Shown here: positions 932-58,778 of the stretch, one piece after another
Numbering within the stretch: position 1 is the stretch's first letter
How the letters are laid out: each line of letters starts with the position of its first letter
Source: Octopus sinensis
Lineage: Eukaryota
Assembly (NCBI RefSeq): GCF_006345805.1
Contig: NC_043011.1
Location: 50,356,464 to 50,420,463, forward strand
Reading direction: 5' to 3'
Length of the DNA stretch: 64,000 nt
The notes under the pieces: generated by a model
What the model saw: the letters and a program-made list of their open reading frames with translations, nothing else
What the model was told of the DNA's origin: nothing
The model's database searches: none
Made by a program: the position numbers and the translations under genes

Positions 932-2085
932 TTTTATGTAGATTTCGAATTGTCAAAAATTGTGGAATTAATATGTTTTTTTTTAATATCTTATTTGTAT
1001 AAACTAAATCAGTTACTCAGAAACTTCGTTCTTGGTTGAATGAATAATGTGTTGTTGTGGGTCAGAATTCCTATATTATTAGTTTGTTAAAGGATTGCTA
1101 GGCCATTGAGCTTTATGCATCTCTCACTTGATCCATAAAAACTCTACACTCTACTTACACACACACATGTTTGTGTTGACATACAATATATGTAGTTACA
1201 GACATTCCTCTCTGTTAATAGTATTATTGTTGTTGACAGTTATTCAAAAGGTGGTGGATTGGCAAATAGTATTAGTAGTGGAGATTGTATTGCTTTTAGT
1301 GCTGATAGCGTTGGTGATAGCGATGATGTTGATAATATTGCTAGTAACGGTGGTGGTACTCTGTTAATTTTATTATTTTATTTCATCTAAAGTCAACCCT
1401 TATTGCTCAACATATTGTCTTCTCCATTCTTACATTTCATACAATTTTTAATGTACCTATGATACCAAGTTATTTATTGTGATTGATTTTTCAAGATGTG
1501 GTTGCTTACATTGTTCGTAGCATTGTCACTGTAGATATTTAATATCACGTTAGTGGTGTTAGTATATATATATAAACCTCGCTAAGATAAATATTTCAAT
1601 TTCCTGAAGATTGACTGTAACCATAACTCGAATTATTACGAATTGGACAGCCATGAAACGATCGTAGTGTTTTATTCATTATCTTTTATTAAACTTTTAA
1701 TACTTTTGATATATATTTAAAATAATATAAATTAATTAATTTTATGTATTAAGTTTTTCATTGTTTGATTTGCCTAATAGTGGTTTCATTTCTAATTTAA
1801 TATATATATATATATATATATATATATATATATACATAATATATCATTAATATTAATAATATGTACTAAAACTTATGTCAACACATTATCAACAGAATCC
1901 GTATTCGTGAAATTTTAGCTATTAAAACTCTAACAAAAAGAAACGCCAAAAGAATTTAACTTTAGACATTCATTCATTCAACCAAGAATGACGTTACTGA
2001 ATAACTGATTTAGTTTATACAAATAAGATATTTGAAAAAAACATATTAATTCCACAATTTTTGACAATTCGAAATCTACATAAAA
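932..2085. repeat. About 120-bp inverted repeat pair (932-1050 / 1966-2085), possibly MITE or foldback TIRs
   Basis: ttttatgtagatttcgaattgtcaaaaattgtggaattaatatg is the reverse complement of catattaattccacaatttttgacaattcgaaatctacataaaa. Confidence 0.85.
1575..1800 (+). mobile_element. Penelope-like terminal fragment with degenerate hammerhead, between TA tracts
   Basis: CTGAAGA 1604-1610, helix II tgactgt/acagcca, GAAAC-gatc-GTA 1655-1666, weak helix I; downstream tail resembles 58781-58865. Confidence 0.6.
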
Positions 2086-2304
2086 AGGAAAATAAAACAA
2101 TAAAACAGCGAAGCTAGAAACTCAGTATATTTATACACTAAAATTGATAACGTCACTAACTATCTAAAGAACAAAAGCTGCAGACAGAAATTATACGTTC
2201 TGCTTAATAGATAAATAAAGAATAAAATAACAGATAATAATTCTACGTCATGCTTAATAGAAACTTGTATAATTTACCTCGCAGAAATTAATTACCGATT
2301 TATT

Positions 2305-2643
2305 TGCGCATGGCTCAGTGGTTAGAGCGTCGAGCTTACGATCGTGAGGTTGTGAGCTCGAATCCCGAACCGGGCTGCGTGTTGTGTTCTTGAGCAAAGC
2401 ACTTTATTTCACGTTGCTCCAGTTCACTCAGCTGTAGAAATGAGTTGCGACGTCACTGGTGCCAAGCTGTATCGACCTTTGTCTTTCCTTTGGATAACAC
2501 TGGTAGCGTGGAGAGGGGAGACTGGTATGCATGGGCGACTGCTGGTCTTCCATAAACAACCTTGCCCGGACTTGTGTCTAAGAGGGTAACTTTCTAGGTG
2601 CAATCCCATGGTCATTCATGACCGAAGGGGGTCTTTACCCTTT
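2305..2643 (+). mobile_element. tRNA(Arg)-like-headed CORE-type SINE
   Basis: A-box tggctcagtgg, anticodon-like ACG, B-box-like gctcgaatcc, CORE-like gtgttcttgagcaaagcactttatttcac...cagctgtagaaatgag. Confidence 0.75.
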
Positions 2644-3327
2644 ACAATAGCGATTGACCATATTTTATAATAACTGAAGAATTATTATAGTCAACAACGT
2701 ATACAACCACCGAGGATTTCACGGGATAATTAAGAAATAGAAATTACAGAAAAGACAATCAAATATCTATTTTTTCTTAATAATAATCTCTTATATAGGA
2801 TTGAACTTCATTGACTAAAAACTGAAAAGTTTTAATTAATAATATCATGTATATATATCTATGTGTATATAAATATACATATATATGTATATTTATGTAT
2901 ATATTAATGCCACTGAAACAAGTGTTGGATTTTTAAGGCGTCATCTAAAATAAAGACATGATTTTCTTCATACATATTGATTGCTATTAATACTCTGAAT
3001 TTCTTAAAATTCTGTATGAGGATTGTTGGATTTACCTGCCATCCATTAGGATTTACCTGAGATTTGTATTCTGCATATATTTACTGGTATCTGCATGTTG
3101 GAAATTTAACCTTATTCCTTTATACTGTTGTGCTTAACCTTATTCCTTGATATCTGCATGAATTTTAATCCAATATATATATATATATATAATATATATA
3201 TATATATATAATATATATATATACCGGAGTAAACACATAAATGTGAAACAAGGTGGAAAAAAGAGTACTCAAATACCAGTGGTAGAGTAATATGCTTTAT
3301 TTAAAGCAGCAGAAAATTCAACAAAAC

Positions 3328-3365
3328 CTGTTACTCTGAGTTTCCCGTTGCCGTTCATCGGACAG
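3328..3365 (-). ncRNA. Type I hammerhead-like ribozyme, CCGAUGA core variant
   Basis: Minus strand: ctgt CCGATGA a cg-gcaa-cg g GAAA c tcaga GTA acag; helix I ctgt/acag. Confidence 0.65.
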
Positions 3366-3388
3366 TTTTTGCTAGAATCTAGCAAAAA

Positions 3389-3426
3389 CTGTCCGATGAA
3401 CGGCAACGGGAAACTCAGAGTAACAT
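3389..3426 (+). ncRNA. Type I hammerhead-like ribozyme, CCGAUGA variant (mirror copy)
   Basis: ctgt CCGATGA a cggcaacg g GAAA ctcagaGTA acat. Confidence 0.6.
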
Positions 3427-3650
3427 GTTTTGTTGAATTTTCTGCTGCTTTAAATAAAGTATATATATATATTTATTTATATACATATATATATACTCAT
3501 AAAATGCAGTGTACATTTAAACACATAAGGAATCCTCTCGTGGGATTCAGCACGTTAGAAAGAACAGCTAGGTTCTATAACCACAAAATTAGAGATAAAA
3601 TCCCGACAGGAACGAAATGAAAAAATAAAAAAACTTTTACCATCTAGATT

Positions 3651-3723
3651 CCTGGACCAATTGGTTTCTGATTTTAGTTTAGCAAATAAATAATATTCGC
3701 TAGGTGAAATCTTCTTCAACAGG
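3651..3723 (-). ncRNA. Type I hammerhead ribozyme, UUGAAGA core, long helix II, in a PLE-like tail (about 3508-3730)
   Basis: Minus strand: cctg TTGAAGA a gattt...tagcgaata/tatttgcta...aaatc a GAAA ccaattg GTC cagg; palindromic helix III ACCAATTGGT. Confidence 0.75.
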
Positions 3724-56237: not shown

Positions 56238-56272
56238 GTTTCCGACGAAGAGCTCCGCTCGAAACGTTAAAC
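56238..56272 (+). ncRNA. Minimal hammerhead-like motif, CCGACGA core, zero-loop helix III
   Basis: gttt CCGACGA a gagc-tcc-gctc GAAAC GTT aaac; tail runs into (TA)n at 56373. Confidence 0.6.
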
Positions 56273-56726
56273 CCTCCTTCTTTCTTTCTTTCCTGAGCGT
56301 CCAATAATACTATATTTGTTCCACGTCCTCGCGTTGTTGTGTTTTTTTTTGTGCTTTCTTGTTTGGATTAACTATATATATATATATATACATCCAAATA
56401 GAAGTGGATAACACCAACACTTTCAATCATTCGATTGGTAAACTACCTCAGTGGTAAACTACCATTTCACTAACCCCTCTCCCTACAATGTACATGTGAA
56501 CTTAAATACTTGTGTTGTGTAGGTATGTATACATGTGTGTGGATATATATATATGTGTATATGTTTCCGCTTCATGTGTGGCCATAAATTTAGCATGCAT
56601 CCATCATCATCGTCATCGTCGTTTAACCTCCACATGGAAAGCGAACGTAGGGCTGGGATAATGGTAGCAGTGAGTACGAGTGCGGAGGTATGGCTCCATG
56701 TGAGATGGAGGAGATATTTGTGTAGG

Positions 56727-57930
56727 TGTGTGTATATATATGTGTATGTATGCATGTATGTATGTATATGCACGTGTTTGTGTATGTAGGTATGCATGTG
56801 TGTATATATGTGTATGAGTCTACATATAGGTTTATACATATATGTGTGTATGCGTATGTTATATATATATATATATATATATATATATATATATATATGA
56901 GCGCTATATTAATACATTTGTTTCTTTGTACTCCACCTGCCTTCGTCTTTTGTTTATTTTCGTAAACTTTCCCTTTATATATATATATATATTTGTATGT
57001 GTGTGCGTATATATATGCATGTATACAGATGCGTATATATGTGAGTATTTATGAATATATCCGTGTCTGTGTGTATATATATATATATGTATATGTGTTA
57101 ATGTAGATAGATAGATATATGTATTTATTTATTTATATGTATGTATATTGTTGGAATTTACAAAAAAAAAAGCAAAACAAAAGACAAAGGCGGGTGTGTG
57201 AACAACAAACAAATACATTAGCTTAACGCTCGGAAGTGAGAAAGTTTTTTACGTATCGAGCCTTTGCTTTCCAAAACAGGGGAACACAAAAATAACTGAG
57301 AGAAGATATAAAAGCTTTATGTATGTATGTGAGTGTGTGTATATATATGTGTATGTATGCATGTAGATGTATATGCACGTGTTTGTGTAGTAGGGTGCAT
57401 GTGTGTATATATGTGTATGAGTCTACATATAGGTTTATACATATATGTGTGTATGCGTATGTATATATATAATATATATATATATTTATCATATATATAT
57501 ATGAGCGCTATTAATACATTTGTTTTTTGTACTCCACCTGCCTTCGTCTTTTGTTTATTTTCGTAAACTTCCCTTTATATATATATATATATTTGTATGT
57601 GTGTGTGCGTATATATATGCATGTATACAGATGCGTATATATGTGAGTATTTATGAATATATCCGTTGTCTGTGTGTATATTATATATATGTATATGTGT
57701 TAATGTAGATAGATAGATATATGTATTTATTTATTTATATGTATGTATATTGTTGGAATTTACAAAAAAGAAAGCAAAACAAAAGACAAAGGCGGGTGTG
57801 TGAACAACAAACAAATACATTAGCTTAACGCTCGGGAAGTGAGAAAGTTTTTTACGTATCGAGCCTTTGCTTTCCAAAACAGGGGAACACAAAAATAAAC
57901 TGAGAGAAGATATAAAAGCTTTATGTATGT
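56727..57930. repeat. About 600-bp tandem duplication containing convergent family A PLE tails
   Basis: Two near-identical units differing mainly by small indels. Confidence 0.85.
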
Positions 57931-58045
57931 ATGGAGTGGGTGTATAATAATATATATAATATATATATATATATATATATATATATATATATATAATAAA
58001 AACTTACTTGGAGAAATAAGAAAGTGACGCGAGGCGTTCAATCAT

Positions 58046-58403
58046 ATAATAACAATTTAACAAATAAAACATATGCATACATACATACATATATGTACAT
58101 ACCTACATCTATATGTATATATACATGCATATATATATATATAAGAGTACAGGACACCACAAATAAACGTAGAACACAACGAGAAACGAAAACAAAAACA
58201 AACAAGGAAACGGACTTTTTTTAACGTCCGTTCCTGTTTGTTTATGTTTTCGTTTCTCGTTGTGTTCTACGTTTATTTGTGGAGTCCTGTACTCTTATAT
58301 ATATATATATGCATGTATATATACATATAGATGTAGATGTACATATATGTATGTATGTATGATGTATGTATTATCATATGTTTTATTTGTTAATTGTTAT
58401 TAT
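58046..58403. repeat. About 360-bp palindrome centred near 58220
   Basis: taagagtacaggacaccacaaataaacgtagaacacaacgag vs ctcgttgtgttctacgtttatttgtggagtcctgtactctta. Confidence 0.9.
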
Positions 58404-58624
58404 ATATATATTATATATATATATTATATATATATATATATATATATATAATAAATATTAGGGAATAAATCCAAATTTACAGGGAAAAAATCAGATTTAG
58501 GATTAAATCCAATTTTATAGTAAAATATTATATAATATTAATTAGAGACAAAACCACTATTTTGCAAAACAAACAAGGAAGACTTAATCAATACATAAAA
58601 TTTTAATAAAAAGTAAAAAAACCG

Positions 58625-58667
58625 CCACTACAATTGTTTCATGTCTTGATCGACAATCTTCAGGTGG
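58625..58667 (-). ncRNA. Canonical minimal type I hammerhead ribozyme
   Basis: Mirror of 58736-58778. Confidence 0.85.
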
Positions 58668-58735
58668 ATTTCCGATTTTCAAGTCAGTTTCAAATTATGA
58701 AGTCATAATTTGAAACTGACTTGAAAATCGGAAAT

Positions 58736-58778
58736 CCACCTGAAGATTGTCGATCAAGACATGAAACAATTGTAGTGG
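58736..58778 (+). ncRNA. Canonical minimal type I hammerhead ribozyme
   Basis: ccac CTGAAGA t tgtc-gatcaa-gaca t GAAA caatt GTA gtgg; predicted cleavage after 58774. Confidence 0.85.

What the first reader, a model, noticed from the sequence alone, without database searches (positions are those of the whole stretch)
1575..58778. Dense system of hammerhead-ribozyme mini-elements targeting (TA)n tracts
Seen: about 10 well-formed type I HHR folds (3328, 3389, 3651, 13098, 14984, 32004, 42866, 56238, 58625, 58736) and about 6 degenerate ones in 64 kb. They belong to at least 6 sequence families with unrelated helices. Almost all sit in short non-coding elements whose tail runs into (TA)n, and helix III is self-complementary or nearly so in every well-formed copy (ACAATTGT, ACCAATTGGT, ACCATGCATGGT, ACGT). 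Established: Penelope-like retroelements and non-LTR retrozymes carry minimal type I HHRs whose short palindromic helix III supports dimeric cleavage. Inference: a diverse, TA-targeted PLE/retrozyme population makes this intron-like DNA rich in potential self-cleavage sites on both strands.
Basis: partly seen in the sequence, partly recalled or inferred. Interest (0 to 1): 0.85.

Follow-up and report, generated by a model that had tools for sequence, protein, structure and literature searches.

The report
Penelope hammerhead fragments, some precisely spliced
The hammerhead-shaped RNA motifs here are real and sit in short pieces of Penelope-like jumping genes lodged in TA repeats, a known pattern, but in one family about half the copies lack their intron exactly, which likely shows that these supposedly intron-keeping elements also copy spliced RNA.

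Summary
Observation confirmed. A strict descriptor finds 9 type I hammerheads (10 relaxed) against about 0.5 in shuffles, in 7 families. Their 3' ends abut (TA)n far more often than controls. They are short end fragments of Penelope-like elements (PLEs). Two families (58.5-58.9 kb, 3.2-3.5 kb) were traced to ORFs with Hydra-clade motifs; two (15 kb, 3.7 kb) are ~478-bp tandem retrozyme-like units; three have no firm parent. Hammerheads, TA targeting, inverted arms and optional tails are all published for PLEs, including an octopus Hydra element.

New detail: both arms of the 58.5-58.9 kb element lack a ~1.04-kb GT-AG intron exactly. Genome-wide, 57 of 100 listed junctions are spliced, on several haplotypes. 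Spliced copies stop near a likely start site, whereas ORF-bearing copies keep the intron. Host exons spliced onto the PLE acceptor were retroposed twice. This favours sense-strand, partly spliced templates over the antisense model proposed for PLE intron retention. I did not find it in print, and this scan had no earlier finding of it.

Self-cleavage of host RNA is unshown: 6 of 10 cores deviate and 4 lie in perfect hairpins.

The parts
58450..58703 (-). Family A foldback, long-tail arm: spliced leader (27-nt exon 1 joined to exon 2 at 58677/58676), hammerhead (C3 58663, cut after 58629), short end, plus ~80-nt tail that leads to the ATG in ORF-linked copies
58704..58870 (+). Family A foldback, short arm: spliced leader (junction 58726/58727), hammerhead (C3 58740, cut after 58774), ends in (TA)n. 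Fragment of a PLE with Hydra-clade motifs
3224..3460 (.). Family B foldback: long arm 3224-3378 (-, hammerhead C3 3361) and short arm 3378-3460 (+, C3 3393, helix I damaged); U4C core; both ends in (TA)n. The family is joined to an RWK/DKT PLE ORF in L133
3484..3883 (-). Family G, partial ~478-bp retrozyme-like unit; hammerhead C3 3719 (C3U core, long helix II insert, helix III ACCAATTGGT)
13064..13556 (-). Family E, 5'-truncated PLE-type end; canonical core at 13178, helix III ACAATTGT; the family has short and long ends and foldbacks; parent ORF not established
14764..15282 (.). Family F, retrozyme-like unit: long arm 14764-15164 (-, canonical hammerhead at 15073, helix III ACCATGCATGGT) plus inverted short arm 15164-15282 (+) without hammerhead
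31907..32113 (-). Family C minimal hammerhead element (C3 32035; A6U core, bulged A, helix III ACGT); one 3' end type; no parent ORF found
42788..42966 (-). Family C-related element, hammerhead C3 42897 (A6U, U17)
56235..56372 (+). Family D minimal hammerhead element (C3 56242; U4C core, helix III ACGT); no parent ORF found
1575..1800 (+). Degenerate family A-related element: core at 1604, helix III ACGATCGT, helix I broken, tail into (TA)17
57175..57908 (-). Two degenerate C-like copies (57175-57304, 57777-57908; GAAA changed to GATA), with C-family tail fragments at 56898 and 57502 on the + strand
60244..60404 (-). Family A tail only (long-tail form), truncated downstream of the hammerhead, (TA)n on both sides
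13751..13843 (-). Family D tail fragment ending in (TA)n
46469..46560 (+). Degenerate hammerhead of a further family (GAAA damaged), not followed by (TA)n

Best explanation
These are short end fragments of Penelope-like retrotransposons and retrozyme-like repeats lying in (TA)n tracts, and the 58.5-58.9 kb element has two head-to-head arms that each lack the family's 1.04-kb GT-AG intron exactly, so it was likely made by reverse transcription of the spliced, sense-strand 5' leader of the element's RNA. SHOWN: family A's unit is a 5.56-kb tandem repeat [exon 1 - intron - hammerhead - short end - tail - ATG - RT - GIY-YIG-type nuclease - long 3' region]. Copies end at one of two fixed points and run into (TA)n. 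Foldbacks have one long and one short arm. Spliced and unspliced copies share haplotypes. INFERRED: the nuclease nicks both strands of a (TA)n tract, and the RT primes at the two internal RNA sites, as shown in vitro for the anole PLE. Priming on the leader reaches the RNA's 5' end after ~170-250 nt and gives spliced mini-copies. Priming at a downstream pseudo-LTR gives long, intron-keeping copies. The intron is probably removed only when it lies near the RNA's 5' end. The hammerheads probably serve the element's own RNA cycle as dimers or protein-assisted ribozymes; in these insertions they are mostly passive passengers.
For: Motifs above chance. ORF links. Hydra criteria from PMC8557442 sec. 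11: DKT, CxCX5C, CxxC, CxH and no CCHH are present in L129/L131. TA adjacency of 3' ends: A 27/29, B 24/29, C 19/25, D 21/23, E 12/17, versus 1.1-2.6% of random sites and 5/83 and 4/82 SINE ends. Intron: donor TTGAAA|GTATGT, acceptor TTTTAG|ATCGG, 1043 nt in L032, no microhomology. 57 of the first 100 of 191 junction matches are spliced (hand count). Spliced arms occur on at least 5 haplotypes also seen unspliced; one clade of spliced copies is rejected, p-AU 1e-156. Exon 1 is at most 27 nt in 36 of 36 spliced arms. Of copies reaching 30 nt upstream of the donor, 97 of 100 listed are unspliced; the 3 exceptions start within ~115 nt. One long plus one short arm in 20 of 21 (A) and 8 of 10 (B) foldbacks, matching the two RT start sites of PMC11167929. 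L133 joins a spliced arm to a 3.0-kb unspliced arm of the same haplotype. Host exons from contig C4, with ~26- and ~17-kb introns removed, are joined exactly to the PLE acceptor in two retrocopies. Compensatory changes keep helix III palindromic in family F.
Against: No RNA evidence for splicing, start site or cleavage was obtained. Pfam gives no RT or GIY-YIG hit for the family A ORF, so clade assignment rests on motifs, not a tree. Family A has KWK, not RWK, and its unit is 5.56 kb against 'generally <3 kb'. Splicing was found in one family only; I saw no such junction dimorphism in B-G (small samples). Families C, D and E have no established parent ORF, and C and D show no foldbacks or second end. 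No spliced leader joined to an ORF was found. The two arms of a foldback are nearly identical (0.4 versus 2.4 differences per 60 nt), which also fits fold-back copying of one cDNA. The source acceptor for the host-exon chimeras is absent from 280 kb downstream.
Confidence: 0.78

Rival explanations
1. Long and inverted copies arise by self-priming on an antisense or unspliced nuclear template (model of Arkhipova et al. 2013), and the spliced mini-copies are a separate side route. The second arm of a foldback is a fold-back copy of the first cDNA, not a second priming event.
For: All ORF-bearing copies seen keep the intron, including every pseudo-LTR of a 3-unit array. Arms within a foldback are nearly identical. 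The model is in print (PMC3846280 passages).
Against: Spliced and unspliced copies share the same two 3' ends and the same long+short foldback pattern (11 spliced pairs, 7 unspliced pairs), which points to one mechanism. Spliced arms can only come from sense RNA. The mixed foldback L133 cannot be a self-copy (1 case).
Confidence: 0.13
2. The intron-less mini-elements descend from one master copy with a DNA deletion and then spread as a non-autonomous SINE-like family.
For: Short fixed-length copies are typical of non-autonomous families, and families C, D, F and G look like that.
Against: The deletion matches GT-AG exactly with no microhomology. Spliced copies are spread over haplotypes and one clade is rejected. 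Host exons use the same acceptor.
Confidence: 0.04
3. The hammerheads are active in host pre-mRNA and cut intronic transcripts on both strands, as a regulatory layer.
For: Four cores are canonical. Helices are kept across unrelated families and covary within family F. The genome-wide load is large (27 in 400 kb).
Against: Helix I pairing probability is at most 0.13 for all 10 with 200-nt flanks, and the four foldback cores are fully paired (a thermodynamic prediction). Selection on the fold is explained by the elements' own cycle. PLE hammerheads cleave poorly in vitro (PMC4209133). No host exon was identified in the window.
Confidence: 0.06
4. The motifs are chance matches in AT-rich, palindrome-rich DNA.
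For: No Rfam hammerhead among the rows shown. Five of 8 isolated motifs do not fold better than shuffles (z above -2).
Against: 9 observed against 0.5 expected. Multi-copy families with the fold in the position known for PLEs. Covariation in family F.
Confidence: 0.01

Closest known systems
Hydra clade of C-terminal EN+ Penelope-like elements (Craig et al. 2021, PMC8557442), including Hydra-1_Obim of Octopus bimaculoides
   Same: DKT motif, CxCX5C linker, CxxC and CxH, no CCHH; (TA)n targets; type I hammerhead with a 4-bp near-palindromic helix III and often a U-U pair at the base of helix II. Family B's helix I and III are nearly those listed for Hydra-2_aMil. Inverted 5'-truncated arm and optional tail.
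   Different: The family A unit is 5.56 kb, with a ~2.8-kb 3' region and an Asn-rich linker. It has KWK for RWK, a ~1.04-kb pseudo-LTR intron, and abundant precisely spliced copies. No intron or spliced copies are noted for Hydra in the section and supplement part I read. The listed Hydra-1_Obim hammerhead matches none of the window's families.
Penelope of Drosophila virilis and Chlamys-3_cRei (5'-UTR intron in the pseudo-LTR)
   Same: Start site and intron inside the pseudo-LTR; the intron's 3' end lies just before hammerhead helix I (PMC4209133; here ~10 nt before it); spliced and unspliced RNAs both exist (PMC2377424).
   Different: Those elements are described as retaining the intron on transposition. 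Here 57 of 100 listed hammerhead-end junctions are spliced.
Minimal hammerheads of metazoan PLEs (Cervera and de la Pena 2014, PMC4209133)
   Same: Short helix I, bulged base before helix II (families C, D), palindromic helix III, many unrelated families per genome, mostly solo copies, opposite-strand pairs.
   Different: Longer helix III (up to 6 bp) and long helix II inserts in E, F and G. Family-wide U4C and A6U cores are not described in the parts I read.
Animal non-LTR retrozymes (PMC7229834; bioRxiv 10.64898/2026.07.22.740005)
   Same: Families F and G: non-coding, circularly permuted tandem units with one type I hammerhead per unit (477-488 bp spacing).
   Different: Units are longer than the ~300-390 bp quoted. 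Most sampled copies are 1-1.5 units, with PLE-type short/long ends, foldbacks and (TA)n targets. Circular RNA was not tested.
Poseidon of Anolis carolinensis (Frangieh et al. 2024, PMC11167929)
   Same: Two internal RT start sites downstream of the hammerhead define the tail; both target strands are cut and extended; uncleaved RNA is the template.
   Different: Different clade. Its ORF starts inside the hammerhead, whereas here the ATG lies ~280 nt downstream of the core. No splicing was seen in the parts I read.

Membership tests
EN+ Penelope-like element (family A) | Single ORF with RT followed by a C-terminal GIY-YIG nuclease | tested here: met
   YRDD RT followed by VVY..YIG nuclease in one 600-aa frame in L131; 14 relatives at 31-41% identity. 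By motif only: Pfam found no family.
EN+ Penelope-like element (family A) | Pseudo-LTRs from tandem or partial-tandem copies, with a hammerhead | tested here: met
   L129, and the 5.56-kb three-unit array L280/L281
EN+ Penelope-like element (families A, B, E, F, G) | Inverted 5'-truncated arm and optional tail at one end | tested here: met
EN+ Penelope-like element (families C, D) | Link to an RT-EN ORF, inverted arms or tail | tested here: inconclusive
   No ORF link, no foldback and one 3' end in 30 loci each; only best-matching copies were sampled
Hydra clade | DKT in place of DKG | tested here: met
   SDKT in family A and family B
Hydra clade | RWK motif near the N-terminus | tested here: inconclusive
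   Family B has LRWKA (met); family A has IKWKA (variant)
Hydra clade | CxCX5C linker; CxxC and CxH; no CCHH in the nuclease | tested here: met
   CTCRDKSKC, CYLC, CRH; a single Cys between VVY and YIG. Family A only; family B's nuclease was not retrieved.
Hydra clade | Insertion into (TA)n | tested here: met
   ORF-linked copies lack (TA)n after the tail
Hydra clade | Generally under 3 kb | tested here: not met
   Family A unit 5.56 kb; a tendency in the paper, not a strict criterion
Hydra clade | Groups with Hydra RTs in a phylogeny | not tested
   No named Hydra proteins were fetched
PLEs in general | Intron retained in transposed copies | tested here: inconclusive
   Met for long and ORF-bearing copies; not met for 57 of 100 listed junctions
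Non-LTR retrozyme (families F, G) | Non-coding tandem units each with a type I hammerhead | tested here: met
   4-unit array at 477/480/477 bp for F; 478-bp spacing and circular permutation for G
Non-LTR retrozyme (families F, G) | Expressed as circular RNA | not testable with these tools
   No RNA run on record holds the family A stretch that was searched; F and G were not searched
Type I hammerhead ribozyme | Three helices around CUGANGA / GAAA / UH | tested here: met
   Topology in 10 of 10; exact core in 4 of 10; covariation in family F
Type I hammerhead ribozyme | Self-cleavage | not testable with these tools
   Indirect test (copy 5' ends at the cut site) gave no pile-up

The most novel reading that the evidence does not exclude
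PLE intron retention is a matter of position, not of template strand. The same sense RNA is spliced only at its cap-proximal pseudo-LTR intron, and a dimeric RT-nuclease primes twice, once per target strand, at two internal sites. That yields spliced leader foldbacks, unspliced long copies, mixed ones, and processed retrocopies of host exons that were spliced onto a PLE acceptor. The palindromic helix III may act mainly as an RNA-RNA handle holding two templates together.
Probability: 0.35. Interest if true: 0.75.

Novelty: new variant of a known kind. Interest (0 to 1): 0.52.

Why it matters
Why PLEs keep introns while moving through RNA has been open since 2003. Craig et al. 2021 call its significance unknown, and Arkhipova et al. 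2013 proposed an antisense template and asked for a way to tell the models apart. A young family with roughly equal numbers of spliced and unspliced copies, a sharp 5' boundary for the spliced ones, a mixed foldback and spliced host-exon retrocopies gives a genomic test of template strand and processing state. It also suggests a PLE route to processed pseudogenes. The hammerhead density itself is ordinary for this genome (rough extrapolation ~10^5 motifs) and is of a published kind.

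Tried and rejected
Rfam scan: no hammerhead in the rows shown; the hits are microsatellite and hairpin matches to miRNA models, and the top rows are all below gathering score. Pfam and PDB gave nothing for the family A ORF. A DNA search for family B returned nothing, not even the window itself; an exact pattern then gave 836 matches. 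Expression: no RNA holder listed; contigs of 4 runs laid on L129 showed no donor-acceptor joint among the rows shown, with 44 rows hidden: uninformative. In-vivo cleavage signature: 5' ends of 38 F-type and 45 G-type arms are spread over the unit, with only 1 and 2 starting within 15 nt after the cut: inconclusive. I first read family A as Neptune or Nematis from memory and dropped that when the Hydra criteria fitted. Spliced leader joined to an ORF: the pattern found only 2 loci, one unspliced and one unreadable. Splice dimorphism in families B-G: not seen. Parent of family E: adjacent to a DKG-type RT fragment in one locus and a short Hydra-like nuclease fragment in another: unresolved. Source acceptor for the host chimeras: not within 280 kb downstream. 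Earlier scan notes: none on this genome or this feature.

Full report
1. Setting. The window is G000:C15:50356464-50420463 in a 2.72-Gb animal genome. It is AT-rich and full of microsatellites, and its ORFs are repeats or transposon fragments. That it is an octopus is my recollection from the dominant SINE and the genome size; I did not test it.

2. Observation. A type I descriptor (core with at most 1 mismatch and G5/G8 fixed; helix I at least 4 bp; helix II at least 2 bp; helix III at least 2 bp with any loop) finds 9 motifs. The tenth listed motif (3393+) appears when helix I is relaxed. Shuffles give 0.5-0.55 on average, maximum 2 in 40 runs. The descriptor does not demand a palindromic helix III, yet 255 of 296 distinct hits in all loci have at most one unpaired base there (sample biased to my queries), against 1 of 9 hits in resampled sequence. 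As hairpins these helices are predicted unstable (0 to -1.6 kcal/mol); as dimers they are stable (-1.7 to -19.9). In family F, helix III varies among ACCATGCATGGT, ACTATGCATAGT and ACCTTGCAAGGT. Across the whole structure, 7 cells show two-sided change and 0 of 500 shuffles reach that, but there are only 11 distinct, related rows, selected for fitting the fold. Only 4 of 10 cores are canonical. In 400 kb of other stretches (280 kb of C4, 40 kb beside the window, 80 kb arbitrary) there are 27 hits, so the window is about twice as dense as that sample.

3. TA targeting. In 30 loci per family I scored whether (TA)4 starts within 12 nt of the element end: A 27/29 (1 without readable end), B 24/29 (1), C 19/25 (5 not scored), D 21/23 (7 not scored), E 12/17 (8 long-tail copies and 5 others not scored). 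Random sites give 1.1-2.6%, and the window's SINE gives 5/83 and 4/82. Where the tail continues into an ORF there is no (TA)n, so the tract is target DNA.

4. Parents. Family A: L032, L129, L131 and L132 carry RT and nuclease upstream of the same hammerhead. L129 shows hammerhead - tail - ATG - ORF - 3' region - intron - hammerhead, and a three-unit array gives a 5.56-kb period. The protein has DKT, CxCX5C, CxxC, CxH and no CCHH, the Hydra-clade marks of Craig et al. 2021 (section 11 read). Their supplement lists an octopus Hydra element with (TA)n targets and similar hammerheads (part 2 of 59 read). Family B's long tail runs into an RWK/DKT ORF in L133. Families F and G are circularly permuted ~478-bp units, F with a 4-unit array: retrozyme-like. 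C, D and E have no firm parent. Short/long ends and head-to-head arms occur in A, B, E, F and G. In foldbacks one arm is long and one short in 20 of 21 (A) and 8 of 10 (B) cases. This is the published PLE tail, shown in vitro to be two internal RT start sites, with both target strands cut and extended (PMC11167929, parts 1-2 of 4). So far all is of a known kind (also PMC4209133, parts 1-2 of 4).

5. What is new. In long family A copies, exon 1 ends TTGAAA|GTATGT and exon 2 starts TTTTAG|ATCGG, 1006-1206 nt apart, with no microhomology. Both window arms read TTGAAA|ATCGG. Of 191 genome-wide junction matches, the first 100 listed are 57 spliced and 43 unspliced (counted by hand; the two arms of a foldback count separately). 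Spliced arms occur on at least five haplotypes that also occur unspliced. On a 59-row tree of the 138-column exon 2, the label is no more clustered than shuffles and one spliced clade is rejected (branch support is low). Exon 1 is at most 27 nt in 36 of 36 spliced arms. Among copies that reach 30 nt upstream of the donor, 97 of the 100 listed (111 in all) are unspliced (many may be rearranged derivatives, not independent). The three exceptions begin within ~115 nt, two at nearly the same base, suggesting a second start site. L133 joins a spliced long arm directly to a 3.0-kb unspliced short arm of the same haplotype. Finally, two insertions ending in (TA)n (C21, C7) consist of host exons from C4 (three and two exons; GT-AG bounded; introns of ~26 and ~17 kb removed) joined exactly to the PLE acceptor, hammerhead and tail. 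Their PLE parts differ, and no source acceptor lies within 280 kb downstream, so how the chimeric RNA formed is open.

6. Mechanism. Shown: the structures above. From published work on related elements: nicking of AT-rich DNA on both strands, internal priming, uncleaved RNA as template. Inferred: priming on the spliced leader runs off the RNA's 5' end and gives 170-250-nt arms; priming at a downstream pseudo-LTR gives long unspliced copies; the intron is probably recognised only near the cap, because further down it follows a 4.5-kb exon. Spliced arms require a sense template. That argues against the antisense self-priming model of intron retention (PMC3846280, passages), at least for these copies. 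Against my reading: no spliced leader attached to an ORF was found; arms within a foldback are near-identical, as fold-back copying also predicts; splicing was seen in one family only; there are no RNA data.

7. Self-cleavage. Nothing here shows it. With 200-nt flanks, predicted helix I pairing is at most 0.13 for all ten, and the two foldbacks form 187- and 97-pair structures that bury their cores. Copy 5' ends do not cluster at the cut. I regard the hammerheads as selected in the elements' own cycle and mostly inert in place.

8. Literature limits. Searches for spliced or intron-less PLE copies and for octopus PLE ribozymes showed no report of this, judged from listings and from the passages named. 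Also seen as passages only: PMC2377424, PMC7229834, PMC6765202, PMC12602865 (nothing relevant). Of bioRxiv 10.64898/2026.07.22.740005 I read part 1 of 5 plus passages; its supplements were not seen. Lunse et al. 2017 is not held; Arkhipova 2003 and 2006 and Repbase were not read. Any of these may describe the core variants or spliced copies.

9. Verdict. Real, and mostly known: Hydra-type PLE ends and retrozyme-like units in (TA)n. The spliced copies are a new variant bearing on an open PLE question. Interest 0.52.

Noticed in passing
L038:9055-9630 / L287 (G000:C21:30949299) and L288 (G000:C7:107072332); parent exons G000:C4:73357260-73400668: Two retrocopies of spliced host exons fused at the family A acceptor. 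The open frame has a weak B-box zinc-finger match (E 9e-4, below cut-off). The source acceptor was not found within 280 kb; distant cis-splicing, a polymorphic copy or trans-splicing remain open.
   Followed up: partly
L131:4348-6189; L032:5698-6669: The family A ORF carries a long Asn-rich insert between RT and nuclease that its database relatives lack, like the N-rich inserts reported in Adineta vaga Penelope (PMC3846280).
   Followed up: no
L129:6560-6600 (- strand): A pyrimidine-rich stretch ending in TAG lies just before the ATG; a possible second leader intron, with a variant in other copies.
   Followed up: no
window 3361/3393, 56242, 32035/42897, 3719: Family-wide core variants (U4C in B and D, A6U in C, C3U in G). 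The ORF-linked family B copy in L133 has the canonical U4, whereas 836 exact matches genome-wide carry C4.
   Followed up: partly
window 3750-3800 and 15110-15150 (- strand): Retrozyme-like families F and G share a TATA-like motif about 60 nt upstream of the hammerhead; possible promoter.
   Followed up: no
window 19555-19784, 28827-29056, 35866-36648, 37443-37674, 45485-45710: Dispersed ~230-bp SINE family, with a 184-bp four-unit tandem at 35913-36648; used as the TA-adjacency control.
   Followed up: partly
window 12305-12670, 21990-22300, 25212-25868, 49940-50329, 51233-51589, 52119-52490: Fragments of other transposons: an RT fragment (Pfam RVT_1 at 12305-12670), LINE-like pieces (by recall) and a helix-turn-helix transposase-like piece at 52119-52490.
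   Followed up: no
L004/L011 (G000:C4:4768675-4769028): Foldback with two short arms whose flanks are also mirror images; possible DNA-level inverted duplication or assembly artefact.
   Followed up: no
L010:2-1350: A different PLE nuclease with a CxxxxCxxC linker, followed by its own hammerhead (helix III ACCGGT): other PLE clades in this genome also carry hammerheads.
   Followed up: no
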